Positions 20,722-63,831 are shown, counted from the stretch's first letter. The stretch is 64,000 bases of DNA from Candidatus Aalborgicola bjergmarkensis (GCA_016708725.1 JADJFE010000002.1:150505-214504); one strand, 5' to 3'. The notes: generated by a model from the sequence alone, not told the origin. Translations and numbers: made by a program.

Positions 20722-20729
20722 CCGCCAAC

Positions 20730-20872
20730 AGCACTGGAGTCGGCTGCGCCGTTTGCTGGCGCACACACCCAGCGCCGGGAAGCGACATTTGACAATCGAG
20801 AATGGCAACATCAACCAATTGACCTTCACCCGATTTTTCGCGGTGATGCAATGCGGCTAATATTCCGATCAC
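20730..20872 (-). pseudogene. CaiB/BaiF CoA-transferase internal fragment
   Basis: IGILAALHHREKSGEGQLVDVAILDCQ; only about 45 codons are recognisable. Confidence 0.65.
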
Positions 20873-20935
20873 CGTAAAAAGATGGTGTCAATACGTCGTT
20901 AATTATCAATGTGAAAACAATGGGTTCCCAGCGGT

Positions 20936-21784: not shown

Positions 21785-21786
21785 TC

Positions 21787-22248: not shown

Positions 22249-22309
22249 GACAAACGGTCAGGTGTAGGGGAAGGTGCGCTCGTGTTGTGGATATGTTTAG
22301 GAAGTCGCC

Positions 22310-23896
22310 ATGAAATTGGGAACCAAGTTATTGATGGCGCCGCTACTGACGGCGCTTGTGTTTTTGCTGACCGGCCAGATCAATGTGGTATTGCGGGCGC
22401 AGGGTGATACCAAAGACATGGCAAACTCCGACGCGACCTTGACTCAATTCAGGACGGTGGTCAATGTGCAGCAACAACTCTACCAAGTGCATTCCAGCGT
22501 GTATAGGACAGTCGGTTTGGTCGCTTCTTTTGACGATGCCAAAGTTAAGTCTTCCCGTGCTGATATGGCCAAACAGATCAACGGCATCAAGGCCATTGCG
22601 AATACCCTCGTTGAGACACCCAGCGCCAACGCCAATTTGCAATCTGCTGTCAGCAATATTAGCAAGGAACTGGAGAACTACATACGGCAGGCTGACTCTG
22701 CGATTGATCTTGCTTCGGTTGACCCCAACACCGGTGTTATGGCGATGCAATCGGCGGATGCCTCTTTCATTGTTTTAAGCAAAATCATCAACGAGATCGT
22801 TTCAGCGGCTACATCAAGAGCCAACGACGACTCGCTGAGCCGTTCGCGCACCATCAATGTGGTTATGCTCATCGTCGAGCTGCTTGCCACCTGTCTGGTG
22901 GTCTGGTTATCGTGGCTGATGCAGAAAAAAATTGTGTACGAGCTGACGCGCGCAGTCAATGTGGCGCATGAGGTGGCCAGCGGCAACCTGGTGATCGATT
23001 CCAGTACCACCCGCCAGGACGAGGTGGGTGACTTGATGCGTGCACTAGCCAATATGCAGGACAGTTTGACCCAGGTTGTCACCAAAGTGCGCCAGGGGGC
23101 CGAAGGGGTTTCTACGGGTAGCGCGGAGATTGCCAACGGCAATCAGGATCTGTCGGCGCGTACCGAGAGCCAGGCCAGTTCATTGGAAGAAACCGCTGCC
23201 TCCATGGAAGAACTGAGTGCGACGGTCAAACAAAATGCAGACAGTGCCCGCGAAGCCAATCAGTTGGCTGTGAATGCGTCTTCGGTCGCGGTAAAAGGCG
23301 GCAATGTGGTCGCTCAGGTCGTAGAAACCATGAAAGGCATCAACGGTGCCTCACGCAAGATTGCCGACATCATCCAGGTGATTGACGGTATTGCGTTCCA
23401 AACCAATATCCTGGCCCTGAATGCTGCGGTTGAAGCCGCCCGTGCAGGGGAACAGGGCCGTGGTTTTGCCGTGGTGGCCAGCGAAGTGCGCAGCCTCGCT
23501 GGGCGAAGCGCCGAAGCCGCCAAGGAAATCAAGAGTCTGATCAACGCCAGTGTGGAGCGCGTCGAGCAGGGCACGGCACAGGTTGACCAAGCCGGAGTCA
23601 CCATGACCGAAGTGGTCAGCAGCATCAAGCGTGTCACCGACCTCATGGGCGAGATCAGTGCCGCCAGCAGCGAACAAGCTGCCGGGGTCGCGCAAGTGGG
23701 TGAGGCGGTCACACACATGGACCAGACCACGCAGCAAAACGCCGCCTTGGTGGAGCAGATGGCCGCTGCAGCTGGCAGTCTCAAGAGCCAGGCGCAGGAA
23801 TTGGTGCAAGTGGTGGCCGTGTTTAAGCTGGGGTCAGAAAGTGGCTTACTTCGGCAAACGCGACCCACCTACGCGCGCATCCGTTCTGCTGTGTAG
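22310..23896 (+). CDS. Methyl-accepting chemotaxis protein
   Basis: [34 protein letters not shown]. Confidence 0.95.
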
Positions 23897-24083
23897 CTCT
23901 TTGCGCAGCCGGTCCATGGCCAATCACCGCGTGGATGGGTTTATGCTGTACGGGCGCAAGAACGTTTTTAGGCTGTATAGCTCATGGATAGTGCGGGAAC
24001 AGCTATTTTTTCATGAGCAAAGCCTGGGGTTGCCTCAAAACATTGCCGAGTCGCACAGAGGGTGGCCGCGCGCCCTCTGTCAC

Positions 24084-24267
24084 TTACCTATCCCCAAACC
24101 CCCGCACCAGCGCCCGGCAAGCCGCCTCGGGGTCAGGTGCTTGGGTGATGGCTGAAATAACCGCTGCACTGGCTGCACCTGTGGCGCCCACTGCGGCCAC
24201 GTTGTCCATACCGATACCGCCTATGCCCACCACCGACAATGGCAGCAGGCCCGCCCAGTAGCGCAGG
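24084..24267 (-). pseudogene. thiE: thiE 3'-end fragment (copy adjoining resumed chromosome)
   Basis: LRYWAGLLPLSVVGIGGIGMDNVAAV.ATGAASAAVISAITQAPDPEAAC; homologous to 26361-26551 and 35141-35228. Confidence 0.85.
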
Positions 24268-24501
24268 CTACGAGCTTCGTGGCCTGCAAGAAAAGGAAAC
24301 TCCGCTTCTCCTCAAACTTGCCCGCAAGGCCGTTCTGGGCGCTATTCATGCAATTCCCATCTGGGCGAGAAAGCGATTGAAGAAACCACGGGCGTGGTGA
24401 CAATTGATGAGCTTGACTTGCACCTGCACCCCCAATGGCAAAGCACAGTCATTCAAGATTTGCTCACGGTTTTTCCAGTGCCTTTTCTCGCAGTACTGGC
24501 T

Positions 24502-25041
24502 TTAAAGCGATCGTTTTTTTCTAGGCGCTCTACCGGGACGATTAGGGACACCTGAGATTAGTTCAGTGTCTTGTGCTGGCGACATTTTAAGATTGTCTGG
24601 AATGGGCAAGGCAACTCCACGAAAACCTGCAGCCAATAGATGTTCTTCAGCTCGTTGCCTCGCCAGATAGTGCACCATGGCGAAGTAGGGGATCATTAGG
24701 TCATCAGGCATATCTGCCCAATTTTCGAATCCCCCCTTGCCCTGCAATTGAAAGAATGCCACTGAAGTGCACTCGTACTTGCACAACTGTCTGGCGTCTT
24801 TCTCAAAGCTCAATATCACGGTGTAATGTATCTTTACGCAAAAGTCAGTAACCTTCGTGTTTTCAGGGATGCTAAATTCAAACGTCGTAGTCGTTTCATT
24901 GCGGATTTTTGACTTCTCCCCTTTGCCATTTTGGAGAATAGGGTCAGTCGTAGATAGCTTCTCGTCAATTTGACGCACCTGACTTATCACTCCCATCAAG
25001 TACGCTGCCGTGCTCCCTTTTTTTTCACTTGGTTTTGTCAT
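24502..25041 (-). CDS. SecB-like chaperone (putative TAC chaperone)
   Basis: Beta-rich pattern FCVKIHYTVIL...CKYECTSVAFFQL then helix YFAMVHYLARQRAEEHLLAAGF..VALPIP resembles the SecB fold; third gene after a TA pair. Confidence 0.6.
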   Translation of the reverse strand: MTKPSEKKGSTAAYLMGVISQVRQIDEKLSTTDPILQNGKGEKSKIRNETTTTFEFSIPENTKVTDFCVKIHYTVILSFEKDARQLCKYECTSVAFFQLQGKGGFENWADMPDDLMIPYFAMVHYLARQRAEEHLLAAGFRGVALPIPDNLKMSPAQDTELISGVPNRPGRAPRKKRSL

Positions 25042-25286
25042 ATCTTGGTTTCCTGTGTGATGAAGAATATTTGGTAGCGCCTCAGAGCGTATTGCAAAAT
25101 CTAAATTTAATATAACGAAGACTATACTCCTCATTTTTTCCATGGACTTTGCGCAGGGAGAATCTGTTTCAATATAATCCTGATAATTGAAATGCAAATC
25201 ATATTCTTACCTGATTGCGTTGTTTGCTCTTGATCTCTAGATAATTTGATATAAGCGAGTATAAATTTATAGAAAATTATTACAAA

Positions 25287-25997
25287 TCAATAAGTTATAT
25301 TTCTCAATACACTCTCCGACTTGTGCGTCGCTACTTTTGCAATGCACAAATCCGAGGCACTACTGGAAAATTGAGTGCGATCATCCTCATGGCCTTCCAT
25401 ATCCTGTGTGATGGCTACGTTTGCATTGGCGCTTATTACGAGGCGACGCTGGTAAATATGGCCGCCATCGGTCGCCTCACTTATCAGACATTCACCGCCA
25501 CTACTTTGTGACTTGGTAATCTCAACTATCAGTTTTGGAACATCAAAGCGATAAGACCACTTCCCACCCACATGCGAAAGGACGATCTTGTCTGTTGGAA
25601 ATCGTGTGGCACCGTCATGAATTGACAGTATTTCGCCAATCGACACGCTGGGCTCGTATCGACCGAAAAATCGGGTGCGAATTGCCAAATCAACCAACTT
25701 TGGAACGGCGGCATCGGATTTCTCCAACCGCGCGACTGTCTGAGTATCGCGGTCGATCAACGTGCCAAAAACCTCTTGGGATATTTCAAGCCCACGCCTG
25801 AGAAATCGCAACTGGCGGCCATTCAGCCCTCTGGGAATGCGGACAAGAATTTTTCGAACACATGCCTCCAAGGCATCTTCGTCCACGTAAGAAACGATTT
25901 CACCGTACGACGACTCCTCTACCAAATATCCATTTTCCAGGTGGAGATTCGGCATGGCGAAATGTGGGTATGAAATCATGGCAATCTTGAAGTTCAT
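25287..25997 (-). CDS. MqsA/HigA-like XRE-HTH antitoxin with long C-terminal extension
   Basis: NLHLENGY, LNGRQLRFLRRGLEISQEVFG..IDRDTQTVARLEK HTH; about 90 extra residues at the C-terminus; ATGA overlap with the upstream gene. Confidence 0.75.
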   Translation of the reverse strand: MNFKIAMISYPHFAMPNLHLENGYLVEESSYGEIVSYVDEDALEACVRKILVRIPRGLNGRQLRFLRRGLEISQEVFGTLIDRDTQTVARLEKSDAAVPKLVDLAIRTRFFGRYEPSVSIGEILSIHDGATRFPTDKIVLSHVGGKWSYRFDVPKLIVEITKSQSSGGECLISEATDGGHIYQRRLVISANANVAITQDMEGHEDDRTQFSSSASDLCIAKVATHKSESVLRNITY

Positions 25998-26302
25998 TTG
26001 TCAGGGAAGACCGTTATTACGACCACCTTCTTGGCGGGGATCAACGACGCTGCGACGATGAGGGTCTCATGGTCCACTATCGCTTCAATTCGAAACGTGT
26101 ACTCGATATCTCCAGAACGGTTTGGAATTGTCGGACTCTCAGTGAATACGCCTTTTTTCAAGCACTCTTTGACTTGTCCCTTGTCAATTCCTCTCAGAGC
26201 CATCCTTTCTTCTGCATGGCGTGTCCAGCCGATTCGGTTGGCGGAAACCAAATGCCGAACTTCTGTGGCGACTTGAGCATCTGACAGCGGCTTATTCGAC
26301 AT
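25994..26302 (-). CDS. DUF4258 family putative toxin (RelE/MqsR-like fold)
   Basis: WTRHAEERMALRGI...V.ECLKKG...VVVITV. Confidence 0.8.
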   Translation of the reverse strand: MSNKPLSDAQVATEVRHLVSANRIGWTRHAEERMALRGIDKGQVKECLKKGVFTESPTIPNRSGDIEYTFRIEAIVDHETLIVAASLIPAKKVVVITVFPDK

Positions 26303-26360
26303 TTATGGCGCGAAGTATATACAAAAATCTATCAAAATGATAGATTTTAATTTAAGAAGG

Positions 26361-26551
26361 CCCCACTCCCGCACCAGCGTCCGGCAAGCCGCCTCGGGGT
26401 CAGGCGATTGGGTGATGGCAGAAATAACCATTGCGCTGGCTGCACCTGTGGCTCTCACCGCAGCCACGTTGTCCATGCTGATACCGCCGATGCCCACCAC
26501 CGGCAATGGCAGCAGGCCCGCCCAGTAGCGCAGGTTGTCCAGTCCTTGCAA
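26361..26551 (-). pseudogene. thiE: thiE 3'-end fragment (second copy)
   Basis: LQGLDNLRYWAGLLPLPVVGIGGISMDNVAAVRATGAASAMVISAITQSPDPEAAC. Confidence 0.85.
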
Positions 26552-26553
26552 AT

Positions 26554-26670
26554 CTACGACTTCCCCGTAAACGCCAGCTGCTGCAGCAAGGCGAACAGGG
26601 CGTCGAGTTGGGCCAGGGCCGTGCGGTGGGTGGCTTTGAGGGCTTCAATGGCTTGGGTGCGGGTGGCGAA
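26554..26670 (-). pseudogene. hsdS: Type I R-M specificity subunit C-terminal fragment
   Basis: FATRTQAIEALKATHRTALAQLDALFALLQQLAFTGKS-stop resembles the conserved HsdS terminal helix (LF.SL..RAF.GEL). Confidence 0.65.
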
Positions 26671-26698
26671 AAGTCAGACTTGACAGAGTATCAAGAAA

Positions 26699-27191
26699 CT
26701 AAAAGAGAATCTGCTTTACTTTCGCATTCAGTCGCGCCCGCTCAACCGCGTTATGCGACAAAAGCGGATGACTCCAGAGCGCTGTTCCGTGTTTCATCTG
26801 CGCAGCATTCAGCCGCCAAAGCTTTCCCGATGTTTTCAAGCGAATCGCCATATTGCTTTTTGAGTGGTTCAGGTTCACTCGACGTGCCGAGTAAAAACAC
26901 ACGATCTACCAAATCGAGGGGTATGTGCGCTTTGAACTTGGCGGTACGCTCTTCGACGTGATCATCAAAATCGATCAGCAGCACCAGATAGCGATTCGGA
27001 TACCGACGAAGTCCCGCAACGTGATCTTCTAGAAAGCTGCCAAGCACCTTGCCCCAGCCTCCGACGCGAGGCAACACCTGAATGTTGCGCGGCTTCAATG
27101 AGGGATCCAGAAGAAAACCGTTTGCGATATCGCGATCAGCATCGTCCTCTGGTACTACAAGCACATGGGGTTTATAGACGTTTACGCTCAC
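26699..27191 (-). pseudogene. TOPRIM-like partner of AAA ATPase, frameshifted near 26790
   Basis: HVLVVPEDDADRDIANGF acidic motif, LLIDFD; a plausible C-terminus (WSHPLLSHNA...KQILF) lies in another frame. Confidence 0.6.
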
Positions 27192-28177
27192 AACTCTAAC
27201 TCCCCAAGCATCAGCGACTTAATTACATCTGAATCAAAATCCAGTTCACCCAGCAGACGCTGCTGCGTTGGCTCCAAGTGGCTCTTGCGCTCCAAGAGCC
27301 AAGTGTTCTCATTTGAAAACTTGCGTATGGCCTCCTCGTTGTGGGTTGTCATGATGATCTGCCCTTGCCCCTCGAAGGCTCGCCGCAGATGCAACACAAA
27401 ATGGCCAACCTCCGCCAGCGAAAGGTAGTTATCCGGCTCATCCAAAAAACAAAAGATAGGCCCGTATGACTGGTTGGCTGCCACGATGACAGCACACAGA
27501 AAAAAGCACCTCTCTCCGTCTGACAGCTCATCAAAATTCAGAGGAAGTACACCACCTTCGCTCTTGAACTGAATGACTAACCGTTTGGACTCCTTACCCA
27601 AGCTTTCGTATTTGAAGTCCCGCAGGTCAGGCATTACATCTTTCAGGTAACTATCAATGGTGGTATAGGCCGCCGGATACTGCCCCAGCAAGCCAGCCAG
27701 CCAGTCCACCGTATTACTGGTGTCTGTCAATGGCCAAAGGGATTCGTCGTTAGACTCGCCCACCATTAACTGCGGCACCGGCGCAATGATCACCATCTGC
27801 GCCAGCCATGTCTTGAAAATGTGGACAGGATCGGTTTCGGACTGCACTTGAATCAGTGGCAGCGCCACCAGATGCCAATCCACCATGAACCGGGCATCGA
27901 TAGTCGCCTCAGGCAGCTTACGCAGCAGCGATACCTGCGCCTGCTCTCGCACATAGACGATGTCGCCTTGCAACTCCAGCTTCTCTTCCAGCACCCGCAA
28001 CTCTTTGAATTTCTCGGGCAATTCGAGGGCCAGGCTATAGCGATACCACTTATCCTGTAGTAGCACATCTACTACAAAGCGCATGGGCACTGCGGACTGA
28101 CCGCAAAAAAAATGGCGAGGGTTGACCAACTGCCCCACGCGATTCACCCCACGTCCAATGCTTTGCAACACTTGCAA
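27188..28177 (-). pseudogene. AAA_21-type ATPase, 3' part (gene split by IS insertion)
   Basis: FDELSDGERCFF signature, FLDEPDNYLS Walker B, IIMTTHN; begins exactly at the TTGCAA duplication. Confidence 0.88.
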
Positions 28178-29650
28178 CGGATCTTCCCCCTAGTCAACCG
28201 AGCAAAACTGCATCAACTAATTGATTTAATTCACTTTCTTTGAGTGGTCAATTTTCTTTTAGTGGACACATTGACTTCCTTGTTTGGTGATTTTGGCAAT
28301 CCAATGCCGGCATGTTCAAATAGTTTCTGGATTGCATCATTGGGAGTGGGGACACAGCGCACGATCTGATGATTCTCAGCACCCTTAACACTGAGCTCAT
28401 GCACACAAAGCGTGGTCAATTGAGCAACCCCCTCTGCCACTGTTACATCTAAATTGCGCCAGCGTTTAGCTAACTCTTGTACCAACCGATATGCCAACAT
28501 CACTACCAGGGCATGTCCGCGTGTGTGCGAAGCCAACCGCACGTATAGCGGACGCATTTCCAGCATAGTCTTGGAGGTGCGAAACGCCCACTCCATGTGC
28601 CAGATCCTTGTAGCGCGCGTGCGACTTCTTTGCTCGCTTTTTTGGCTTTTACATCGGTTTTTATCACGTAGCAGCCATCGAGTTGGGTGTGTTTTGATTT
28701 TGCCTGTGCGTCTTCTTTCAAACTGAGTATGCGCTCGTTGAGCGTCACGCTGACCCACGCCTGTAGTCCCAGCTCTTTGCATTTTTTCTCAATTCGCGCC
28801 AGCGCCAAATTGGTTTTGGCTCGTTTATGCTCGTCCAGGTACTGGTTGCTTTTGTCCAAAAGTGCCTGCAACCGCTCAAATTTGCTCTGATGTGAAGCTG
28901 CCAATTCACTCTGACGCACTGGGTTGCGCCGCAGCACGTAGCGCACCTGATCAACTCCGTCGCTGACCTCGGCCAAGCCATCCTTAAACAAGTCCATCCG
29001 CAATACACCAGACTTGAGCAAGCCCCTCAATCTGAGGTTTTGTAATGGCCGTAATGTATGAATACCCCTTTTTAGCAAGCAGCTCTATCTGTTCGCTTTT
29101 GATCATGCCCCGATCACCCACCAGCGTGACCTCTTTGGCTCCAAAACGCGCAGCGAGCTTGTCGATCCTTTGGCGCTCACGGAAATTGACCCACCCCTGC
29201 TCATTGGAATTGACCCACAGACTTTGGCTGAGAGTACGTTGGCATGTGGTGATAGACGAACCCACAGCTCTTGGATGAATGCCTGAGGCTGACGTTCTTG
29301 CGTATGTCAACCGCCATTGCTTGAATTAATTCGTTGTCCAGACTCAAGATATCGTTTGACAAAGGCAGGCTTGGTCAATGTGGGTACGGATAGTTGGTGG
29401 TCTGCCAAGACTATGAATTGGCACTGCGCCCGACAAGCGTGTAAAACGCAGATGTAATGAAGAACGGGCGCACCAACCGCTTTCGACCCGAACAAGTGAT
29501 TTCGGCTAGCGCGCCCCACCCGTATCAGCCACGAGTGCGCACCAATTATTGTCCCCAGTCGTGATCAATGTCCAGTGCTGAATGTGCTGTGAGCATGAAC
29601 CACGGATCGACTTTCGAGGTGTCCATTTGAGGCTCCAACAGGAGCGCTGA

Positions 29651-30091
29651 ATGCAAGCTGCATTGAGCAGTGGACGCACGCTGCAATGTGCGTGCTGTCA
29701 AACCGAAGTGCTAGTGTGTACGCCTTGTGACCGAGGTCAGCGCTACTGCAGCGCTGAGTGTCGCAAACAGGCACGTCTAGCCAGTCAACGCAGAGCCTCC
29801 AGGATATATCAAAGCAGCCGTGTCGGACGCTGCAACCACGCCCGTCGTCAACAACGATTACGCCTACGCCAGCGAGAGCAGGAACTGCCTCCAAAAAATA
29901 GTGACTCATCAGGGCCTTCCCAAGAAGCCTGTGCGGGTGATTTACTACCACCACAGCTCGATGTGAAGCCAGCGCAACTGTCCAAGCCGACACCAGCGGG
30001 GCATTGCCACTGGTGCGCGCGCCCTGTGGCGAGCGGAGTTCGCCGTAGTCGGCTGCTGCGGGCAACGAGTGAACCGATTTTCGACCCATAA
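29651..30091 (+). CDS. Cys-rich (zinc-finger-like) basic protein upstream of the IS21 genes
   Basis: CACCQTEVLVCTPCDRGQRYCSAECR followed by an Arg-rich helix. Confidence 0.7.
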   Translation: MQAALSSGRTLQCACCQTEVLVCTPCDRGQRYCSAECRKQARLASQRRASRIYQSSRVGRCNHARRQQRLRLRQREQELPPKNSDSSGPSQEACAGDLLPPQLDVKPAQLSKPTPAGHCHWCARPVASGVRRSRLLRATSEPIFDP

Positions 30092-30108
30092 AAGACAAGG
30101 AATTACCC

Positions 30109-31065
30109 ATGACCGACTCCCTTGAAAGCCAGACCAGCAACACCCATGGCTTTGGCGCTCATGAACAAAGTGTGGGCGGGTACGTTGGCGCAAGACAAGT
30201 CGATTTACACCGCCTGGAGCTGCGCTTTGAGGCCACCCGCATCGCCGATACGGCGGCAGTGCAGCGACTGACTGAATCGATACGCACAAGCGGACAACTG
30301 GTAGCGTGCATTGCCGCTGACGACCAAGACAGTGGTGCCCTGGTACTGATTGACGGCTACCGGCGCCTGAGCGCGCTCAAGCGACTGGGCGCAGACACCG
30401 CCCTGGTGCAATGCTGGCACTGCCCGGTGGGGCCTGCGCTGGCACAGATGCTGGCCCACTCGTTCTCGCGGGCATTTGACCCCATGGAGGAAGCCCTCAT
30501 GCTGCGCGAGCTGATCGACTCCCTTGGCCTGAGTCAGCGCGAAGCTGCACGTCAATGCGCCCGTGATGTGAGCTGGGTACAGCGCCGCTTGGTACTACTG
30601 GGGGCACTGTCCCAGGACCTGGTGCAGGCGGTGCGCAGTGGGGGCATATCGAGTTGGGCGGGCTCACGCATTGTGGCCCCGTTGGCGCGCGCCAACAGCG
30701 AGCATGCCAGTCAACTACTGGCCAGCATGGCAAGCGACCACTTAAGTACGCGTGAACTGCAAGCCTGGTTTAGCCACTACCAAGCCGCCCAACACACGCA
30801 GCGCCAACGCATGGTGGAACACCCACGCCTGTTTATCGACAGCTTGAACGAGAGACAAAGCCAGAGCATTGCCAAAGACCTGCGGGGCGGACCTGAACGT
30901 GAGGTGGCTGCTGAGCTGGGTTACCTGCAAGCACTGCTGCAACGCGCACACCGACGCCTAGTGCCACTGACCGCCCCGTTGGAACCAACGCTAAAGGGCG
31001 CGTGTCTGCGCCTGCATGTAGCGCTGGAACAAGTGAACAACGAACTTACCAGGCTGGTGCCATGA
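30109..31065 (+). CDS. ParB N-terminal domain/HTH protein linked to istA
   Basis: LVLIDGYRRLSALKRLG, DPMEEA, LSQREAARQCARDVSWVQRRL; overlaps the istA start. Confidence 0.85.
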   Translation: MTDSLESQTSNTHGFGAHEQSVGGYVGARQVDLHRLELRFEATRIADTAAVQRLTESIRTSGQLVACIAADDQDSGALVLIDGYRRLSALKRLGADTALVQCWHCPVGPALAQMLAHSFSRAFDPMEEALMLRELIDSLGLSQREAARQCARDVSWVQRRLVLLGALSQDLVQAVRSGGISSWAGSRIVAPLARANSEHASQLLASMASDHLSTRELQAWFSHYQAAQHTQRQRMVEHPRLFIDSLNERQSQSIAKDLRGGPEREVAAELGYLQALLQRAHRRLVPLTAPLEPTLKGACLRLHVALEQVNNELTRLVP

Positions 31066-32519
31066 CCCCGATAGATATTCGTGCCAGTGTGCTCACCTTG
31101 CACCAACAGAGCACAGGTTTACGTGAAATCAGCCGGGTGCTGCATCTCTCGCGCAACACCGTGCGAGGCATCCTGCGCGAGCCACAAGGCGTGCAAACAC
31201 CTGCCCACCCGGTGAATGAGGTCACCCAACAACAACTCACCGAAGTCTATGCCAGAGCCAAAGGTAACGCCGTGCGTATGGCCCAGATACTGGCTGATGA
31301 GTACAAGCTGCACCCGCCCTACAGCACCCTCACGCGCTGGGTGCGCCAAGCTGAACTGCGCCAACCACCCAAGCGCTCCGGCGAATACCACTTCGAGCCC
31401 GGCCAGGAGATGCAGCACGACACATCGCCCCATAAGATGGAGGTGGCGGGCAAGAGCATTACCGCCCAGTGTGCAGGTCTGACCTTGGCGTACTCGCGGC
31501 GTTTGTTTATCTGGTACTACCCACGATTTACCCGCTTTGAGGCCAAGGACTTCTTGTTGCGCGCAGCCCAGTTCATGGACGGCACTTGCCCACTTTGCGT
31601 GATCGACAATACCAGCGTCATTCTCGCTGGTGGTGCTGGGCCTGATGCGGTATTCGCACCAGAGATGGCCGCCTTTGCACGCGCCCTGGGCTTCAAGTTT
31701 ATGGCACACCGTGTCAATGACCCTGATCGCAAAGCCAGAATCGAGCGCCCCTTTGCATGGGTTGAGGACAACTTCCTGCCTGGGCGCAGTTTTAGCTCTT
31801 TCGATGACTTGAACGCACAGGCGCTCAAGTGGTGCGTTGAAGTGGCCAATGCCAAGCCAAAACGCAGTCTGGGCATGGCACCTGAGGTGGCGTACGTGAT
31901 GGAGAAGCCTTACCTCACCAGCCTGTCAATCGTCTTGCCAGCAGTCTACGAGGTGTTTGAGCGGGTGGTGGACTTGTACGGTTTTGTCAGCGTCGACACC
32001 AACCGGTATTCGACACCTGAACGGCTGGTGAGTAAGACGGTGACGGTGTACAAGCATTACGCCAGTATCGAGATTCATTACAAACGCACCCTGGTGGCCA
32101 GTCATCCCCGTTTGCTGGGTGTGCGTGATGCGCGCTCCACCTTGCCCGGGCATCACACCATACCCAAACGCACGCCTCGCCAGCCTTCGCTACAGGCGCA
32201 GTTGTTGTGTGGTCAATCTCCTGTTCTTGATGCGTACGTCACAGCGCTCATCAAGCACCTCAATGGGCGTGGTACACGGGCACTGAACCGACTGCTACAG
32301 ATTAAACGGACCTACCCAGCGCAGCCGTTCCTAGCAGCGCTGGAGCAGGCGCTCAAGTACGGTCTGTTTGATTTGACGCGACTGGAGTCCATGGTGTTGC
32401 GCCATGTGGCAGGCGACTTCTTTGCGCTAGGTGAGAGCAGCCATGACAACCTCCCCAATGAACCGGATGATAAAGACGATGAGCAAACCAAAAACGACAG
32501 CGACCCCGACCCCGCGTGA
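31062..32519 (+). CDS. istA: IS21-family transposase
   Basis: HTH start; PGQEMQHD, LAYSR, IDNTS, KARIERPF (DDE), FVSVDTNRYS.P. Confidence 0.92.
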   Translation: MTPIDIRASVLTLHQQSTGLREISRVLHLSRNTVRGILREPQGVQTPAHPVNEVTQQQLTEVYARAKGNAVRMAQILADEYKLHPPYSTLTRWVRQAELRQPPKRSGEYHFEPGQEMQHDTSPHKMEVAGKSITAQCAGLTLAYSRRLFIWYYPRFTRFEAKDFLLRAAQFMDGTCPLCVIDNTSVILAGGAGPDAVFAPEMAAFARALGFKFMAHRVNDPDRKARIERPFAWVEDNFLPGRSFSSFDDLNAQALKWCVEVANAKPKRSLGMAPEVAYVMEKPYLTSLSIVLPAVYEVFERVVDLYGFVSVDTNRYSTPERLVSKTVTVYKHYASIEIHYKRTLVASHPRLLGVRDARSTLPGHHTIPKRTPRQPSLQAQLLCGQSPVLDAYVTALIKHLNGRGTRALNRLLQIKRTYPAQPFLAALEQALKYGLFDLTRLESMVLRHVAGDFFALGESSHDNLPNEPDDKDDEQTKNDSDPDPA

Positions 32520-33287
32520 GGCCTTGCACGCATTGCTAACGGAGTTGAAATTCAAAGGCATGGCGCGTGTGCTGGACAGCGAACTTGATCGCGCTGAGCG
32601 CAATGGCACCTCTTGCGCAGAGGTGGTGCAACGCCTGCTAAGCGAGCAGGCTTCGTTTCAGCGGGAACGCTCATTAGTCAATCGGGTGGCGCAGGCACAC
32701 CTGCCCTGGCAATGGACGATCGACACCTTTCCCTTTGATCGCCAAAGCGGGGTGAATAAGGCACAAATCCTCGGTCTTGCCGACTTGGAGTTTGTGCGTC
32801 GCGCCGACAATCTGGTGCTCATTGGTGGCACCGGCACCGGCAAGACCGGCATCGCTCTGGGACTATTGCGCCAGGCCTGCATCAATGGCTGGCGGGGGCG
32901 CTTTACAGTGCGCAGGCGCTGCTCGATGAGCTGTATGCCTCGCTGGCAGATCGCTCCACAACCAAGCTGCTCACGGCGCTTGCACGTATGCAGCCGCTTT
33001 GCATTGACGAGCTGGGTTACTTGAACTTGAAGACAGAACAGACCAACGCGTTCTTTCGTCTGATGGATCAACGCTATGGGCGGGTGAGCACCATCATCAC
33101 TACGAATTTGGACTACCCCCAGTGGTACGAGTTGTTTAACAACAAGCCGCTGGTCGATGCCTTGCTTGATCGGCTGCAGCACCACTGCATCACCATCCGC
33201 ATTGAAGGTGCATCTTTGCGCACCAGCGCACCTGCCACAGCACCTGTGCAGAGCTCAACCAGTCCTGCGAGCCCCAAGGCAAAGTAA
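32479..33287 (+). pseudogene. istB: IS21-family helper ATPase, 1-nt frameshift near 32903
   Basis: GGTGTGKT Walker A in one frame; IDELGY, STIITTN and ALLDRL.HH in another; restoring one T in CGCTTTACAGT gives GRFYSAQALLDEL. Confidence 0.9.
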
Positions 33288-34923
33288 AACCGTCTCACCA
33301 CCGCCGTGCAGTATCTGCTTGATGGATAAGTAGGGGGTCGGCGTGGATATGTGGACAAGCTTGCAAAACGCCCAGCTTGACCACATACCCACACCTCCCA
33401 CCCGTACTTACCCACAAGGGTCTTGCCCACGGGCCTGACGCGCTTCGCTTGCCAAATTGCCATTTGAAAATAAAACCATGAAGACCAATACCAAGACAAA
33501 AACCCGGGGCAACGCCATCCAGTTGCATACGCACAAAACGAGAACAGCTTAAATTAACTGAAAATTTTGTCTTGACTCTCAGTTCCACCTTACACCGGTT
33601 CACCAAGTATCAAAACCGGTATTCTGCCAACAACGCAAGAGCCTCGATTTGATCAGCAACGGTGATGGATGCAGCAATCAATCCATCACGGAAGGTGATC
33701 ATGCTCAGTCGAGCAGGGTGGCAACCCATGCTTGCGTAACCAAATTTCATCTTCAAACGGGTTGCTTCTTCAATGAACTGAAGTCGCTTCTTCACGCACA
33801 TTGGTCGAGCCAATGATCGCCGATTCTGTTTCCTGCAGGCCATCAAGTTACAAACAGCCGCGCAACCGGTGGGTCAGCTTTCTGTGAGCACAGGTGGGTC
33901 AGTTATTTTGAGCGCCGAAGGTCGATCTGGTTTTTTACTGTCTTGGGGTCTTGAGTATTGCCAGAAAATACCTCAATGCCCAGCGGCACTCCGTAGCCAT
34001 CGCACAGTAAACCAATGACAATCTGGCTTTTGCCCTTCTTGCCGTCCCGGTTGTAGCCAAAGGCTCCGAGTTCGTTACATGAACCCTCCAGATAACTGCT
34101 GGTGACATCGTAGAGAAACAGTCCATCTGATGTACGTTGTGCTGACTTGTTCGTAACCTGCTCAGGTGCGCTCTGTGTGTGATGCTGTGCGCTGTAGTTG
34201 CTTGCTTGAGAGTGTGTAAAAGCGTTTTCTCAATGAACTCCTGTTGCTCGGTGAGCCAACCAAGGTTTTGGTACAAATCGTCTTCATCAAAACGTGGCAA
34301 ATCCAAAATTCCGCATGCGTGAACGCGTGCCAGGCGCACCGCAGACAGCCGTGAGCCTTGGTCTATTGCGCGTGCCAACACCTGCCACAACGCAAGACGA
34401 CCTGCACGCTCTGAACCCAAAGCGCTCGTAATACCCAACTCACGCGCAAGTTCTGCGAGTAGCCAGATCGCACCAATGGACTGCCCTTGATGCAGTTGCG
34501 TGCATCAAATCAATGTCACTGACAACAGCGGTCTTTGCCTCAGCAATGGGGTGTCTAGCTGGGGTACCTTTGGGACAGAAATAGGCCCGTCAAGTTGAGC
34601 AGACAGCGTGCTCAATTGATCCTTGTGTTTGAAGGCCAAGCGCATGGCTGCAATATCTTGTTCAGAGCACTTGCTTAGGTTAGCAATGGTGCGATGCTTG
34701 ACCTTTCCGCCATCGCGAAAGCTTTCACGCAGAAGATAACGGGTGTATGATTTCTCGCCGTTACGAACAGTAGAAGCGTCGATATACATAGTGACTACAA
34801 ATATAGTCAAAAAACTGCAAATTACCAATGAAAAAATAAATTTTCTAAAGAAAAATTAGTGGCTACAAAATTGCTAAGTCATTGATTTAGATAGATGTGG
34901 CAAAGGTTATGGGGGAAGATCCG

Positions 34924-35055
34924 TTGCAATGCCTTGGCCACTGAAGACTTACCCGCACCGTTTTTGCCCAGTAACAGCGATGAATGCTTGCCTTGCGGCT
35001 TGAGCTCAAAGTTCTGAAAGGTCTTGAAATTGTGAATGTACAGACGTTGCAACAT
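34924..35055 (-). pseudogene. AAA_21-type ATPase, 5' part
   Basis: MLQRLYIHNFKTFQNFE...LLLGKNGAGKSS Walker A; joins in frame to 28177 across TTGCAA. Confidence 0.88.
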
Positions 35056-35140
35056 GTTGGCGCTACTCAAGTAAGAAACTAAACGAATTGTCGGCGATGT
35101 CCAACTCGGATTGAAAGCACCTTTTCCTGCGAAATGTTCT

Positions 35141-36058
35141 TCATTGACCCCCAAACCCCCGCACCAACGCCCGGCAAGCCGCTGCGGGGTCCGGCGACTG
35201 GGTGATGGCCGAAATCACCGCTGCGTAGGCGTGGCACAGTGCGTGGGTGGTGGCCATCTTGGCCAGCACCACAGCGTCGGCCACGCAGTAGCCACAAGCC
35301 AGCGCCGCAGCGGCGGTGGATGCAAAGGTGCAGCCAGTGCCGTGATGGTGATGGGTATTCACGCGCGGCAGGCTCAACCAGCCGCTGGTCTGGGCGCATT
35401 GCAGCCAGTCGCTGGCCAGGCCTGTGGCGGGTGCTGCGTCGCCCCCGGTGATGGCCAGCGGCGGCTGGTTCTTCGTACCAGATGTCTGCCCGATGTGCAG
35501 GCCCAGGCGCCTGGCTTCCGCGCGGTTGGGTGTGGCCAGGGTGGCGCGCGGCAGTAGCTCTTGCATGTAGGTCTGCACCAGTGCGTCGTCAGCAAAGCTG
35601 GCTCCGGTGGTGGCGCCCAGTACCGGGTCCACGACCAGGGCCAGCGCATGGCCTCTTCCCCGCAAACGGTCCACCCAGTCGCACACCACGCGCAGATTGT
35701 CCACGCTGCCCAGCAGCCCGGTCTTGATGGCCTGTGGCGGCAGGTCTTGTGCGAGCGCGGCCAGCTGGGCATCCAGCAGAGCGGCGCTGACCGGCTCCAC
35801 GTGTGTGACGGACACCGAGTTTTGCGCGGTGATGGCGGCCACTGCCGTACACCCATGCACGCCAAAGGCTTGCAAGGCCTTGAGGTCGGCCTGCAGTCCG
35901 GCGCCAGCACCTGGGTCGGAACCGGCCACGCTCCAGACCACGGGACGCATGTCGGCGGCCAGCGAGCGCACTTCAGTGCCAAATGTGCCTAATGTGCCTA
36001 ATGTGCTCAATGTGCTTGCAGCCCTTGTGGGATGTGCGGGAGCAGCTTCTTTTTTCAT
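35141..36058 (-). CDS. thiD: Hydroxymethylpyrimidine/phosphomethylpyrimidine kinase joined directly to the last about 25 codons of thiE
   Basis: SVAGSDPGAGAGLQADLK, TAQNS, IKTGLLG, VVDPV, TPNRAEA, HGTGCT; ends AVISAITQSPDP (ThiE tail). Confidence 0.9.
   Translation of the reverse strand: MKKEAAPAHPTRAASTLSTLGTLGTFGTEVRSLAADMRPVVWSVAGSDPGAGAGLQADLKALQAFGVHGCTAVAAITAQNSVSVTHVEPVSAALLDAQLAALAQDLPPQAIKTGLLGSVDNLRVVCDWVDRLRGRGHALALVVDPVLGATTGASFADDALVQTYMQELLPRATLATPNRAEARRLGLHIGQTSGTKNQPPLAITGGDAAPATGLASDWLQCAQTSGWLSLPRVNTHHHHGTGCTFASTAAAALACGYCVADAVVLAKMATTHALCHAYAAVISAITQSPDPAAACRALVRGFGGQ
35982..36017. repeat. 4 x 9-bp in-frame tandem repeat (AATGTGCYY) in the thiD 5' end
   Basis: AATGTGCCT AATGTGCCT AATGTGCTC AATGTGCTT. 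Confidence 0.8.
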
Positions 36059-36065
36059 AGTAGAT

Positions 36066-36160
36066 TCACAGCAGGATGGGGTGGCCTGCGACGGGTGTGG
36101 ACGCTACCGCCATGTCCTGACGCGCCATGATTCCGGCCTCAAAGGCCAGTCGCCCGCCTC
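36066..36160 (-). pseudogene. thiG: Thiazole synthase C-terminal remnant
   Basis: GRLAFEAGIMARQDMAVASTPVAGHPILL-stop resembles the ThiG C-terminus; lies directly upstream of thiD. Confidence 0.75.
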
Positions 36161-36182
36161 GCTGCCATGGGCCAGCTGGCGG

Positions 36183-36253
36183 GCTGGTATGAACCAGATC
36201 AAGTTCACGGGTTCGGCATCCATCTCAGCGCAACCATTGCGCACCCCGGACAA
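36183..36253 (-). ncRNA. TPP riboswitch aptamer, 3'-truncated
   Basis: Minus strand GGGGTGCG...GCTGAGA...GAACCCGTGAACTTGATCTGGTTCATACCAGC; the expected G(T/A)AGGGA P4'/P1' strand is absent. Confidence 0.85.
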
Positions 36254-36717
36254 AGGGCGAGTGTACGTAGGGGATGCGTCCCTTGACCGGATGTCAACTG
36301 CGCCCGGATGCAGCGCAGGTGAACATGGCATCCACACACATCGGCGCGGTGGCTTTCATCCACCAGTTTGGCTCCAGTCTGAACGAATTAGGGTCGTACA
36401 TCTAATTCACTATTGGAAAAATTAAACGAACGTTCGTACAGTTCCACGCGACCGTCACCGGTTTTTTATTAAATGTCTAAATTTTTAAACGTGGAGTTCG
36501 ATCATGCAACAAGTCTCAAAAAGGCGCCCTCTTTTCTTCCGCGCCGCTTTCGTTGGTTGTGCTAAAGCACTAACCGTCGAGGATTCCTCTACAGCCGATG
36601 TCGCCTGCTGGTTCAAAAAACCTACGGCGGCGAATTTAATCTGATGTGAACAGTCTGGCAACCATTGCCGTGTTGACTGAAATTGCAAACAAATCGGTTT
36701 TTTTTTAGGGGACTATC

Positions 36718-37728
36718 ATGAGCAACCAATTACTGGTGTTGGAGTCAGGTTTTCAGGTACCGTCGACTTACACCTTCACCCAGAGCGAGCGCCTCAGCTA
36801 TTTGAAGAACTATGGCGTTCATTCCATGGCGTTTTCAACCTTGCAGCCTGATATGGAGTATTTTGATGTTCCAGGGGTTGGGTATATTGCGTATGCCCGC
36901 TACCTGGGCTTGAAGTTTGTTCTGTCAGATCCAATTTGTGATCCATCACACGTGGAGTCGATGCTCAATCGCTTTGTTGCCAAGTATCCGAATGCAGTAT
37001 TTGCACAAGTTACCAAGAACGTGGTGGACATACTGCACCGCAATCACGGTTATTTCGGTACCCAGTTTGGGTCCGAATCCAAAATACCGCTGGCCGACTG
37101 GGATCTGCGCGGCAAGAAAAAACAGATCATTCGCACGGCCATCAACCAGGCCGTCGCACAGAATGTCGAGATTCGCGAGGGTTGTTTTGATCACTATACC
37201 AAGAAGATTTCCGAATCGTGGATCAAGACACGCAAGTGCAAGAGCAATGAGATCCGTTTTCTGATCCGTCCCATGCTGATGAGCTACAAGGAAGGCACGC
37301 GTTACTTTTATGCCTACCAGAATGGCGAAGCAGTGGGCTTTGTATTTTTTGACCCCATTTACCGCAATGGCAAACTGGTTGCTTATGTGCCGAACATTTC
37401 CCGTGCTTGTGCCACGTTCAAGCAGGGATTGTGGTATCCCATGATGGCACACGCCATGGAGGTATTCAAGGCCGAAGGGGTGGAGTATCTGGACATGGGT
37501 CTGATACCACTCATGCTGGACGATGAGATGGAAGCGCAAGAGTCACGTTCCCTGCGTTCGGTGCAAAACCTCATATCGAAGTGGGGAAACTCTCTCTACA
37601 ACTTCAAAGGTTTGGGGTTTGCCAAATCCCGATTCCAGGGGCGTATCGAAAAAACTTACTGCTGCCACCGCAACCAGTTCCCCGGTTTTGCCATGTTTGC
37701 CATGTTCCGGTTAACGCGCCTTATCTGA
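36718..37728 (+). CDS. DUF2156 / MprF C-terminal (aminoacyl-tRNA-dependent transferase) domain protein without membrane domain
   Basis: LSDPICDP, DWDLRGKKKQ.IRTAIN, GFVFFDP, EGVEYLDMGL, YNFKGL.FAKSRF. Confidence 0.75.
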   Translation: MSNQLLVLESGFQVPSTYTFTQSERLSYLKNYGVHSMAFSTLQPDMEYFDVPGVGYIAYARYLGLKFVLSDPICDPSHVESMLNRFVAKYPNAVFAQVTKNVVDILHRNHGYFGTQFGSESKIPLADWDLRGKKKQIIRTAINQAVAQNVEIREGCFDHYTKKISESWIKTRKCKSNEIRFLIRPMLMSYKEGTRYFYAYQNGEAVGFVFFDPIYRNGKLVAYVPNISRACATFKQGLWYPMMAHAMEVFKAEGVEYLDMGLIPLMLDDEMEAQESRSLRSVQNLISKWGNSLYNFKGLGFAKSRFQGRIEKTYCCHRNQFPGFAMFAMFRLTRLI

Positions 37729-49853: not shown

Positions 49854-51986
<2,133 letters not shown>

Positions 51987-51998
51987 GAAGACCAGCCC

Positions 51999-60293: not shown

Positions 60294-60314
60294 CCCACCA
60301 CAGCAAGCCTAGCC

Positions 60315-63788: not shown

Positions 63789-63831
63789 GCGTTCCAGTTT
63801 AGCAGGCTGCGGCGATGAATGCGCCGCTAAC

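What the first reader, a model, noticed from the sequence alone, without database searches (positions are those of the whole stretch)
24084..35228. Three copies of the thiE 3' end partition an 11-kb island into defence-type cargo blocks
Seen: homologous thiE tails at 35141-35228, 26361-26551 and 24084-24267, all on the minus strand. Similarity ends at the last codons (CGGGGGTTTGGGG / CGGGAGTGGGG) and is followed each time by unrelated DNA: the ATPase/TOPRIM pair, then the TAC operon, then the resumed chromosome. Established: islands integrating into a gene's 3' end duplicate that end. Inference: tandem integrations at a thiE attB, but no integrase is present and the repeats are long and diverged.
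Basis: partly seen in the sequence, partly recalled or inferred. Interest (0 to 1): 0.62.

Follow-up and report, generated by a model that had tools for sequence, protein, structure and literature searches.

The report
Integrase-less cargo stack behind thiE
Three leftover copies of the end of a thiamine-synthesis gene mark where small toxin-antitoxin and anti-phage-type gene blocks were stacked one behind another in a Rhodoferax chromosome without any integrase; the stack is real and shared with sister genomes, but it is old and decaying, so it is a moderately interesting variant of a known kind of insertion hotspot.

Summary
Three minus-strand copies of the thiE 3' end lie at 24084-24267 (A), 26360-26551 (B) and 35141-35225 (C), 86-91% alike. 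Relatives carry a fused thiD-thiE gene. Here the ThiE domain is deleted in frame, thiC/O/S/G are gone, and no intact thiE exists in the genome. About 6.7 kb of the "11-kb island" is a nested IS insertion that splits the ATPase gene.

Three other assemblies of the same narrow Rhodoferax clade also carry extra thiE tails, next to different small cargo: a PIN toxin-antitoxin pair, a 239-aa gene, the same ATPase pair, an HNH gene and a methylase-like gene. Nineteen other species carry none.

No tyrosine recombinase or attC site was found, and the cargo blocks share no common leader sequence. Tail lengths vary from 39 to about 450 nt, and the right-hand junctions scatter over about 15 nt. The ATPase pair is much younger (4-fold-site divergence 3% against about 20%) than its flanks.

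Best reading (0.5): homology-anchored, integrase-free stacking of chromosomal fragments exchanged among close relatives, followed by decay. Main rival (0.25): classical site-specific accretion whose integrase has been lost. This is a new variant of a known kind; interest about 0.4.

The parts
24084..24267 (-). thiE tail A. It holds the last about 61 codons, the native stop, about 15 nt of native 3' UTR and a terminator-like hairpin. It is most like the functional thiE ends of clade-mates.
   Evidence: PF02581; the end GGGGGTTTGGGGATAGGTAAG is shared with the full-length thiE of G031, L148 and L149; 91% identical to G031 thiE.
24340..24480 (+). Remnant of an ABC/AAA_21-type ATPase gene (signature S-x-GEK and Walker B IDELDLHLHP). 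It is debris of an earlier cargo between the toxin-antitoxin block and tail A.
   Evidence: Six-frame translation; motif reading is my own inference.
24502..26302 (-). Three-gene block: DUF4258 toxin-like gene (25994-26302), HTH protein (25287-25997) and a third gene (24502-25041, about 179 aa). It is shared with sister genome G031 at about 90% nt, the genome-average divergence.
   Evidence: Pfam. Orthologous block in L049/L050. 4-fold-site divergence.
26360..26551 (-). thiE tail B (last about 63 codons). Its end is altered (GGGAGTGGGG|CCTTCT) and runs straight into the palindromic operator of the DUF4258 operon.
   Evidence: The same junction is present in Logan contig L147 at 99%.
26557..26670 (-). 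3' remnant (about 37 codons plus stop) of a type I restriction hsdS gene, 5 nt upstream of tail B.
   Evidence: Translation. About 85% nt identity over 108 nt to the hsdS that precedes the ATPase pair in Giesbergeria locus L079 (score 141 against a shuffle maximum of 31).
26699..27191 (-). Small TOPRIM-like partner gene of the ATPase, frameshifted here (intact copies are 161 aa).
   Evidence: 7-nt indel. Invariant E15 and D74-x-D76 in 31 homologues. AF2 pLDDT 84 with weak TOPRIM-containing fold hits.
27188..28177 (-). ABC-type ATPase gene, C-terminal 329 codons.
   Evidence: Pfam AAA_21/SMC_N. PADLOC AbiLi/HEC-01A/AriA-like. 98% identical to L027.
28178..34923 (.). Nested IS insertion. The outer 1.99-kb IS (28178-29166 plus 33922-34923) has terminal repeats CGGATCTTCCCCC, a 6-bp target duplication TTGCAA, and four other copies in the genome. 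It is interrupted by a 4755-bp IS21-family element (29167-33921; istA, frameshifted istB, ParB-like gene) that has at least 8 copies.
   Evidence: and I1.
34924..35055 (-). ABC-type ATPase gene, N-terminal 44 codons with Walker A, plus about 85 nt of leader up to tail C.
35141..35225 (-). thiE tail C: the last about 27 codons, fused in frame to thiD. It is probably the resident gene's own 3' end after an internal 630-nt deletion.
35226..35950 (-). thiD (HMP-P kinase) moiety of the former thiDE fusion. The ORF extension to 36058 is REP-like repeat sequence.
   Evidence: Pfam PF08543..
36066..36258 (-). Last about 30 codons of thiG (36066-36156) joined directly to a sub-threshold TPP riboswitch (36157-36258). 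This is the scar of the thiC-thiO-thiS-thiG deletion.
   Evidence: (RF00059, 34.4 bits against a gathering threshold of 54.3).

Best explanation
The locus is an old, decaying insertion hotspot at the stop codon of thiE. It is specific to one narrow Rhodoferax clade.

Proposed mechanism. Small self-contained modules arrived as chromosomal fragments from close relatives: a DUF4258/HTH three-gene toxin-antitoxin-like block, an ABC-ATPase plus mini-TOPRIM pair, and a type I R-M system of which only the hsdS end is left. Each fragment carried the donor's own thiE 3' end. Normally such a fragment replaces the resident cargo by double homologous recombination. Occasionally it is added instead of exchanged. 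This could happen by single-crossover (Campbell-type) integration of a circularised fragment, or by one homologous and one illegitimate join. Either route leaves the displaced thiE 3' end behind as a pseudogene tail. Once present, the tails are extra homology arms for further stacking, swapping and deletion. No dedicated recombinase is needed.

Later events in this genome:
- The thi pathway was lost: thiCOSG was deleted, and ThiE was deleted in frame at a 6-nt microhomology.
- The ATPase was split by two nested IS elements.
- Its partner gene was frameshifted.

Shown: the tails; the deletions; the IS nesting; clade-specific recurrence with different cargo; absence of recombinases and attC sites; recent exchange of the ATPase pair.
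Inferred: the recombination route (homology-anchored, RecA-type) and the order of events.
For: 1. Extra thiE tails with different cargo occur in three further assemblies of the same clade:
- G031: thiDE, a 239-aa gene, a 446-nt tail, then the ATPase pair. It also has a 39-nt tail fragment and the last about 12 nt of a tail in front of the DUF4258 block.
- L148: thiDE, a PIN toxin-antitoxin pair, a 170-nt tail, then an HNH gene.
- L149: a 32-nt thiD fragment fused to a 228-nt tail.
2. All tails cluster with the clade's own thiE (78-91%) and are far from other species (65-77%), so any donors were close relatives.
3. Left ends of the tails differ (-85, -185, -185, -198, -228, about -450). Right junctions fall at four or five different nucleotides within about 15 nt. 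The cargo blocks share no leader.
4. No tyrosine recombinase lies in the window or on the G031 contigs. No attC cores were found.
5. The ATPase pair has 4-fold-site divergence of 0.034 against 0.19-0.21 for thiD and the RND gene. Mismatches are about 4 times denser in the adjoining tail (7 in about 65 nt) than in the cargo (6 in about 245 nt). So cargo is exchanged between lineages with a crossover at the thiE end.
6. Truncated remnants (hsdS 3' end, ATPase fragment) abut the tails, as expected from illegitimate joins and deletions.
7. [quoted passage not shown]
Against: - Tail A and the L148 tail start at the same nucleotide (..|CCTGCGCTACTGG) although their upstream DNA is unrelated, and tail B starts 14 nt away. 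Random breakpoints would seldom coincide. My rough estimate is under 10% for any pair among six ends.
- The young ATPase tract begins within about 25 nt of the tail end. That is short for RecA-type exchange and more like a site-specific core.
- All junctions sit in one clade-specific G-rich motif (CTGGTGCGGGGGTTTGGGGG).
Stacking by recombination is therefore inferred, not observed.
- Only four assemblies support the pattern, and three of them are short MAG or metagenome contigs.
Confidence: 0.5

Rival explanations
1. Classical site-specific tandem accretion. Integrative elements with a tyrosine or serine integrase and an attP that mimics the last about 185 nt of thiE inserted one after another at a core in the last codons (CTGGTGCGGGGG). 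The integrase genes were later deleted, or act in trans, leaving CIME-like integrase-less units between att repeats.
For: - Direct repeats of the target gene's 3' end bracket each unit.
- The native end sits on the distal-most tail in the window, as this model predicts.
- Tail A and the L148 tail share a left boundary to the nucleotide, and tail B lies 14 nt away.
- The high-identity ATPase tract starts within about 25 nt of the tail end.
- Tails of 170-190 nt at 80-90% identity resemble the icd duplication made by prophage e14 (my own knowledge).
- One relative (L037) has a recombinase gene, a dead intI, 0.5 kb behind thiDE.
Against: - No recombinase is present at the locus in any of the four assemblies.
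- The L037 gene is an integron integrase with ordinary attC cassettes and has no thiE repeat.
- Junctions are not at one position, and tail lengths run from 39 to about 450 nt.
- In G031 and L148 the native end sits on the full-length gene, not on the distal tail.
- No shared element arms or leaders exist.
- A search of 5.8 billion proteins for short thiE-tail ORFs found true tails only in this clade among the hits I examined.
Confidence: 0.25
2. In-situ segmental (tandem) duplication of a block 'thiE 3' end plus downstream DNA' in the clade ancestor, followed by independent replacement and decay of the DNA between the copies. On this reading there were no serial integrations.
For: - All tails fall within the clade's own thiE diversity.
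- A and B have nearly the same length and are 2267 bp apart.
- The same window holds other large diverged tandem duplications (51064-53372 against 59371-61694, 91-98%).
- G031 has tandem WGR/DUF4132 paralogues in this very region.
- Part of the array (tail B remnant plus the DUF4258 block) predates the split from G031.
Against: - Nothing between or beside the copies is duplicated. The DNA upstream of A and of B is unrelated (score equal to the shuffle mean), and so are the downstream sequences.
- Each clade member has different cargo and different tail lengths.
- The ATPase pair is demonstrably a recent import.
Confidence: 0.15
3. Assembly artefact: strain variants of one locus concatenated in a mixed-population assembly (CheckM contamination 4.2%).
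For: The genome is in 40 contigs with 4.2% contamination. The repeats are about 90% identical, like strain or species variants.
Against: Tail-cargo junctions recur in independent assemblies: L147 at 99%, L027, and L148 with thiE plus a tail on one contig. The tails have different lengths and flanks. The contig is 589 kb.
Confidence: 0.03

Closest known systems
[quoted passage not shown] 2017, PMC5635113), and defence-island hotspots of E. coli and P. aeruginosa (PMC10121019, PMC10250203)
   Same: Variable small defence and toxin-antitoxin cargo lies directly behind a conserved core gene. There are no integrase or conjugation genes. There is evidence of recent exchange of one module between lineages.
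   Different: In those hotspots cargo is normally replaced between two intact flanks. Here the flank gene's 3' end has been duplicated up to three times and partitions the cargo, and the flank gene itself has since been destroyed.
Tandem accretion of site-specific integrative elements and CIMEs (cis-mobilizable elements) at the 3' end of fda in Streptococcus (reviewed in PMC7563491), and tandem ssrA-specific genomic islands of Dehalococcoides (PMC3146451)
   Same: Head-to-tail units are each bounded by a direct repeat of the target gene's 3' end. Some units lack any recombinase.
   Different: Those repeats are short, precise att cores (about 20-30 nt) made by an identified integrase that is present in sister elements. 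Here the repeats are 39 to about 450 nt and 78-92% identical, the junctions are imprecise, and no integrase was found in any relative.
Prophage e14 / phage 21 integration into icd of E. coli (my own knowledge, not checked here)
   Same: A long (about 165 nt), diverged duplicate of the 3' end of a protein-coding metabolic gene is left at the far end of the insert.
   Different: e14 carries its integrase and a defined crossover core. It is a single insertion, and icd stays functional.
Homology-facilitated illegitimate recombination and Campbell-type integration during natural transformation (Acinetobacter, Streptococcus, Pseudomonas stutzeri; my own knowledge; term confirmed in the literature search)
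   Same: One homologous anchor plus one microhomology join adds foreign DNA without a recombinase. Truncated genes are left at the illegitimate joint.
   Different: These are known from laboratory selections, usually with deletion of recipient DNA. As far as I know, they have not been documented as building natural multi-copy stacks behind one gene.
PARIS (AriA/AriB), OLD/Gabija and AbiL-type ATPase + TOPRIM defence systems (for the cargo only)
   Same: ABC-type ATPase (AAA_15/AAA_21; PADLOC AbiLi/HEC-01A/AriA hits) next to a small protein with the TOPRIM E...DxD signature. In Giesbergeria the pair sits between hsdS and hsdR, a typical defence context.
   Different: The partner is only 161 aa and matches no Pfam or PADLOC family (not DUF4276). 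The function is untested. The copy in this window is inactivated.

Membership tests
Site-specific integrative island / CIME tandem accretion | Units bracketed by direct repeats derived from the 3' end of the target gene | tested here: met
   Three thiE tails in direct orientation. Further tails in G031, L148 and L149.
Site-specific integrative island / CIME tandem accretion | A tyrosine or serine recombinase in the element, or in sister elements at the same site | tested here: not met
   PF00589 search: no match in the window (nearest on the contig is more than 300 kb away) and none on G031 contigs C75/C115. Gene lists of L148 and L149 hold none. Serine recombinases were not searched separately; the ORF and Pfam scans of the locus showed none.
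Site-specific integrative island / CIME tandem accretion | One precise crossover core shared by all att copies | tested here: not met
   Homology ends after GCGGGG, GCGGGGG..GTGGGG or ..TTTGGGGGT in different copies. Left ends lie at -85, -185, -185, -198, -228 and about -450. The coincidence of A with the L148 tail keeps this partly open.
Site-specific integrative island / CIME tandem accretion | Target gene regenerated intact after integration | tested here: not met
   No intact thiE in this genome. The gene is intact in G031 and L148.
MGE-free recombination hotspot at a core gene | Different cargo at the same position in close relatives, with conserved flanks | tested here: met
   Window, G031, L148 and L149 differ behind thiE. 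The RND-side flank is shared with G031 at 91.6%.
MGE-free recombination hotspot at a core gene | Signs of recombinational exchange at or next to the flank gene | tested here: met
   4-fold-site divergence of the ATPase is 0.034 against 0.19-0.21 for thiD and the RND gene. The switch in divergence falls at the end of the tail.
Integron cassette array | attC sites (RYYYAAC ... GTTRRRY) bounding cassettes, and an intI/attI platform | tested here: not met
   No GTTAGCG or related core pairs in 20000-37000. No similarity to the window's own integron stubs. intI fragments lie elsewhere in the genome only.
ATPase + TOPRIM two-gene defence systems (PARIS / AbiL / OLD-like) | ABC/AAA_15-21 ATPase adjacent to a TOPRIM-fold nuclease (E ... 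DxD) | tested here: inconclusive
   ATPase: Pfam AAA_21/AAA_15 and PADLOC AbiLi 4.7e-24, AriA 3.4e-17. Partner: invariant E15 and D74-x-D76 and a confident model (pLDDT 84). Only weak fold hits that include TOPRIM proteins (retron Eco2, Topo II; E about 0.03, TM about 0.4). No DUF4276 or PADLOC hit.
ATPase + TOPRIM two-gene defence systems (PARIS / AbiL / OLD-like) | Anti-phage activity | not testable with these tools
   Needs expression in a laboratory strain and phage challenge. The copy in the window is inactivated by IS and a frameshift.
Toxin-antitoxin-chaperone (TAC) operon | SecB-like chaperone as third gene | tested here: inconclusive
   No Pfam hit. No PDB sequence hit at E up to 10. 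AF2 model with 2 sequences has pLDDT 43 and is unusable. The DUF4258 toxin-like gene and the HTH gene are confirmed.

The most novel reading that the evidence does not exclude
The thiE tails are not just scars. They work as portable homology pads. In this Rhodoferax clade, and perhaps in the other 'integrase-less stacks behind a gene end' noted elsewhere in this scan, promoter-to-stop defence and toxin-antitoxin modules would be captured, stacked, swapped and shed by host recombination alone. The G-rich end of thiE (CTGGTGCGGGGGTTTGGGGG) would act as a break or crossover hotspot. That would be a recombinase-free functional analogue of an integron.
Probability: 0.2. Interest if true: 0.65.

Novelty: new variant of a known kind. 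Interest (0 to 1): 0.4.

Why it matters
Many defence islands sit at hotspots with no mobility genes, and how they get there is an open question. This locus keeps unusually long and legible scars: diverged copies of a protein-coding gene's end, truncated remnants of earlier cargo, and one module demonstrably exchanged after speciation. The order and manner of insertions can be read from these, and they can be tested with a few more genomes of one clade.

The locus also shows a bacterium that has dismantled its thiamine pathway (no thiC, thiG or thiE) while keeping thiD behind a riboswitch remnant. That predicts thiamine or precursor auxotrophy.

If the recombinase-free stacking route were confirmed, it would explain a recurrent pattern of tiny integrase-less cassettes behind gene ends in several phyla.

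Tried and rejected
- **Integron origin of the cargo: rejected.** No attC or attI cores in 20-37 kb. No similarity to the window's integron stubs. The palindrome after the ATPase pair in G031 has GTT...AAC in the wrong order for an attC.
- **IntI cleavage at a secondary GTT/AAC at the -185 boundary: rejected.** The hybrid junctions do not keep AAC/GTT (sequence inspection).
- **thiE-linked integrase in relatives: not supported.** Only L037 has a recombinase nearby. It is a dead integron integrase with ordinary cassettes, unique to that species.
- **Tail plus cargo moving together as one mobile unit: rejected.** The ATPase pair is in 79 other loci without thiE. The DUF4258 block in G031 lacks most of tail B.
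- **Shared leader or arms among cargo blocks: none found**. The apparent GAAGxTCGTAG match upstream of A and B is at chance level.
- **Metagenome scan with the tail peptide:** gave only distant thiE genes.
- **Mosaic test along thiDE (G031 against L148):** uninformative, because divergence simply rises in the unconstrained last 60 nt.
- **SecB-like third gene:** no sequence evidence, and the AF2 model was too poor to use.

Full report
**1. Observation**

The three repeats exist as described. The repeat finder reports a 170-nt pair, 24098-24267 and 26365-26534, at 91% identity. It also reports a 76-nt family with a third member at 35149-35224 (86-88%), all in direct orientation. MAFFT shows the same. 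Pfam finds the C-terminal end of thiamine-phosphate synthase (TMP-TENI, PF02581) in copies A and B.

Two junctions are confirmed by independent assemblies:
- A Logan contig (L147) is 99% identical across tail B and the DUF4258 gene.
- A contig of a sister MAG (L027) carries a thiE tail joined to the same ATPase gene.

An assembly artefact is therefore very unlikely.

**2. What the 'thiE' really is here**

The ORF at 35141-36058 is thiD (PF08543) with only the last about 27 codons of ThiE attached in frame.

All relatives carry a bifunctional thiD-thiE of about 500-536 aa. This holds for 4 genomes of the genus, 19 Comamonadaceae species, and 120 database proteins.

The junction in the window lies at a CGCAGC microhomology between the end of the ThiD part and position -85 of thiE.

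The genome is 98% complete and has no other TMP-TENI match than tails A and B. It has no ThiC and no ThiG.

Upstream of thiD, the last about 30 codons of thiG are joined directly to a sub-threshold TPP riboswitch (RF00059, 34 bits).

**3. Anatomy of the 11 kb**

Read on the minus strand, the order is:

1. thiD'
2. tail C
3. leader and ATPase N-terminus (to 34924)
4. nested IS (28178-34923)
5. ATPase C-terminus (28177-27188)
6. frameshifted small partner gene (27191-26699)
7. 3' remnant of a type I hsdS gene (26670-26557)
8. tail B
9. DUF4258 gene, HTH gene and a third gene (26302-24502)
10. fragment of another ABC-type ATPase on the plus strand (about 24340-24480)
11. tail A, with the native stop and a hairpin

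The IS insertion has two layers:
- The outer layer is a 1.99-kb IS with a 6-bp TTGCAA target duplication and four other copies at 99%.
- It is itself hit by a 4755-bp IS21-family element that has at least 8 copies.

So the real cargo is only about 4 kb.

The hsdS remnant is about 85% identical to the hsdS that precedes a homologous ATPase pair in a Giesbergeria MAG. There the pair lies between hsdS and hsdR.

**4. The cargo**

*ATPase pair.* The ATPase matches AAA_21/AAA_15 and PADLOC AbiLi, HEC-01A and AriA. Its 161-aa partner is conserved next to it in 79 of 79 related loci, mostly cyanobacteria and some Comamonadaceae.
- The partner has an invariant Glu15 and Asp74-x-Asp76.
- Its model is confident (pLDDT 84).
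- It gives only weak fold matches, which include TOPRIM proteins.

'ATPase/TOPRIM pair' is therefore reasonable but not proven. The copy in the window is inactivated.

*DUF4258 block.* The DUF4258 and HTH genes are confirmed. The supposed SecB-like third gene could not be supported:
- no Pfam hit
- no PDB hit
- an unusable AF2 model, pLDDT 43

**5. Relatives**

Nineteen other Rhodoferax/Curvibacter-like species have one thiDE and no repeat of its end within 9 kb. The immediate clade is different.

*Sister MAG G031.* Its thiD shares 91% nt with the window. The layout is thiG, thiDE (intact), a 239-aa gene, a 446-nt thiE tail (92.4% to its own thiE), then the intact ATPase pair. On a second contig it has:
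- the RND gene that flanks the window's region
- the orthologous DUF4258 block, preceded by the last about 12 nt of a thiE tail
- a WGR/DUF4132 gene
- a PhD/PIN pair
- a 39-nt tail fragment
- a second WGR/DUF4132 paralogue

*MAG L148.* The layout is thiDE, a PIN toxin-antitoxin pair, a 170-nt tail, then an HNH gene.

*Metagenome contig L149.* It has a 32-nt thiD fragment fused to a 228-nt thiE tail, followed by a methylase-like gene.

I searched 5.8 billion proteins for short thiE-tail ORFs. Among the hits I inspected, true tails occurred only in this clade. One other hit (L150) is a frameshifted thiDE. Five hits on contigs of at most 1.6 kb were not examined.

All tails and all full-length thiE ends of the clade are 78-91% alike, and 65-77% like other species.

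**6. Ages**

Window against G031, divergence at 4-fold degenerate sites:

| Gene or block | Divergence |
|---|---|
| RND gene | 0.21 |
| thiD | 0.19 |
| DUF4258 block | 0.06-0.14 (small numbers) |
| ATPase | 0.034 |

The tail-B/DUF4258 arrangement therefore predates the split of the two species. The ATPase pair was exchanged long after it.

Mismatches are about four times denser in the 65 nt of tail next to the ATPase pair (7) than in the following 245 nt (6). The high-identity tract ends 5 nt after the partner's stop codon.

**7. Mechanism**

*Against a dedicated integrase system:*
- No tyrosine recombinase lies in the window or on the G031 contigs.
- There are none in the gene lists of L148 and L149.
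- No attC cores are present.
- There is no similarity to the integron stubs in the same window.
- The cargo blocks share no arms or leaders.
- Tails run from 39 to about 450 nt.
- Homology ends at several different nucleotides within the last about 15 nt of thiE.
- In G031 and L148 the 'native' end (…GGGGGTAGGTAAG…) sits on the intact gene, while in the window it sits on the distal tail.

These facts fit exchange of ordinary chromosomal fragments among close relatives, with thiE as homology anchor. Usually such a fragment replaces cargo, as in the MGE-free hotspots of PMC5635113. Sometimes it stacks it, by Campbell-type single crossover of a circularised fragment or by one homologous and one illegitimate join. 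Stacking leaves the displaced gene end behind. Deletions and IS then erode the stack, leaving the hsdS and ATPase remnants.

*In favour of a site-specific process:*
- Tail A and the L148 tail begin at the same nucleotide although their upstream DNA is unrelated. Tail B begins 14 nt away.
- The young ATPase tract starts within about 25 nt of the tail end.
- All junctions sit in a clade-specific G-rich motif.

I therefore give 0.5 to homology-anchored integrase-free stacking, 0.25 to decayed site-specific accretion, 0.15 to in-situ duplication with later cargo turnover, and 0.03 to artefact.

**8. Comparison with known systems**

The closest known kinds are:
- MGE-free hotspots diversified by recombination at flanking core genes (PMC5635113)
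- tandem accretion of integrative elements and CIMEs at a gene's 3' end (PMC7563491; Dehalococcoides ssrA islands, PMC3146451)
- from my own knowledge, the long diverged icd duplication made by prophage e14

This locus differs from the first kind by the repeated, partitioning gene tails. It differs from the others by the absence of any recombinase, the imprecise junctions and the variable repeat length.

Earlier notes of this scan list similar 'integrase-less stacks behind a gene end' in other phyla. These are unchecked leads, but they suggest the pattern is recurrent.

**9. Limits**

- Three of the four supporting assemblies are short contigs.
- The recombination route is inferred.

**10. Verdict**

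This is a new variant of a known kind, with interest about 0.4.

Noticed in passing
window 35141-36258; whole genome G000: The thiamine pathway is dismantled. There is no ThiC, ThiG or intact ThiE anywhere in a 98%-complete genome. A TPP riboswitch remnant is joined to the last about 30 codons of thiG and an intact-looking thiD. This predicts auxotrophy for thiamine or its precursors.
   Followed up: yes
window 28178-34923: Two young, multi-copy IS families are nested in one another. The outer is a 1.99-kb IS with terminal repeats CGGATCTTCCCCC and a 6-bp target duplication. The inner is a 4755-bp IS21-family element that also carries a ParB-like gene and a 146-aa Cys-rich ORF. Other copies in the genome are 97-99.8% identical.
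   Followed up: partly
L051-L129 (79 loci); L079:295-2400: The ABC-ATPase plus 161-aa E...DxD partner is a widespread two-gene module with no Pfam or PADLOC family for the partner. It is commonest in filamentous cyanobacteria (57-60% aa identity). In Giesbergeria it sits between hsdS and hsdR. It is a candidate uncharacterised defence pair.
   Followed up: partly
window 35951-36156; L027:352-618; L050:18700-19060: REP-like units of about 110 nt (translated MKKxAxPAHPTRxxSTxGT...) are repeated in tandem between thiG and thiD and again beside the WGR gene in G031. They give the thiD ORF a false N-terminal extension.
   Followed up: no
L050:10606-18673 (G031 contig C115): Two tandem paralogues of a 1210-1227-aa WGR + DUF4132 protein are separated by a PhD/PIN pair and a 39-nt thiE tail fragment. 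Each paralogue's stop codon is followed by a different piece of the same thiE tail.
   Followed up: partly
L037:11409-17100: In Rhodoferax sp. STL-PRO67 a frameshifted integron integrase lies 0.5 kb behind thiDE (after an esterase gene). It is followed by cassettes with canonical GCCTAAC...GTTAGGC attC sites. This arrangement is unique to that species among those examined.
   Followed up: partly
window 51064-53372 vs 59371-61694; 53320-53372, 61642-61694, 63830-63882: This is another 'repeated flank piece plus different cargo' architecture in the same window. A 2.3-kb chromosomal segment is duplicated 8.3 kb apart at 91-98% identity. A 53-nt acyl-CoA-dehydrogenase piece is present three times, next to integron stubs. 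It may reflect the same stacking process as the thiE tails.
   Followed up: no
G000 contig C8:18157-22568: The 5-kb gene block that lies upstream of thiC in other Rhodoferax species sits on another contig here and is followed by lolC/lolD-like genes. The thi locus of this clade is therefore at a different chromosomal place than in other species.
   Followed up: partly
window 24092-24111, 26359-26378, 35149-35168 and clade-mates: The thiE end of this clade alone carries the G-rich motif CTGGTGCGGGGGTTTGGGGG. All cargo junctions fall inside it. Other species have CTGCTGCAGGGCTTTGC-type ends and no tails. It is a possible break or crossover hotspot.
   Followed up: no
window 20766-24083: The MCP, sCache and TauE-like genes between tail A and the RND gene are absent from the sister genome, which has a methyltransferase and an acyltransferase there. 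The variable region is therefore about 14.5 kb, larger than the finding's span.
   Followed up: partly
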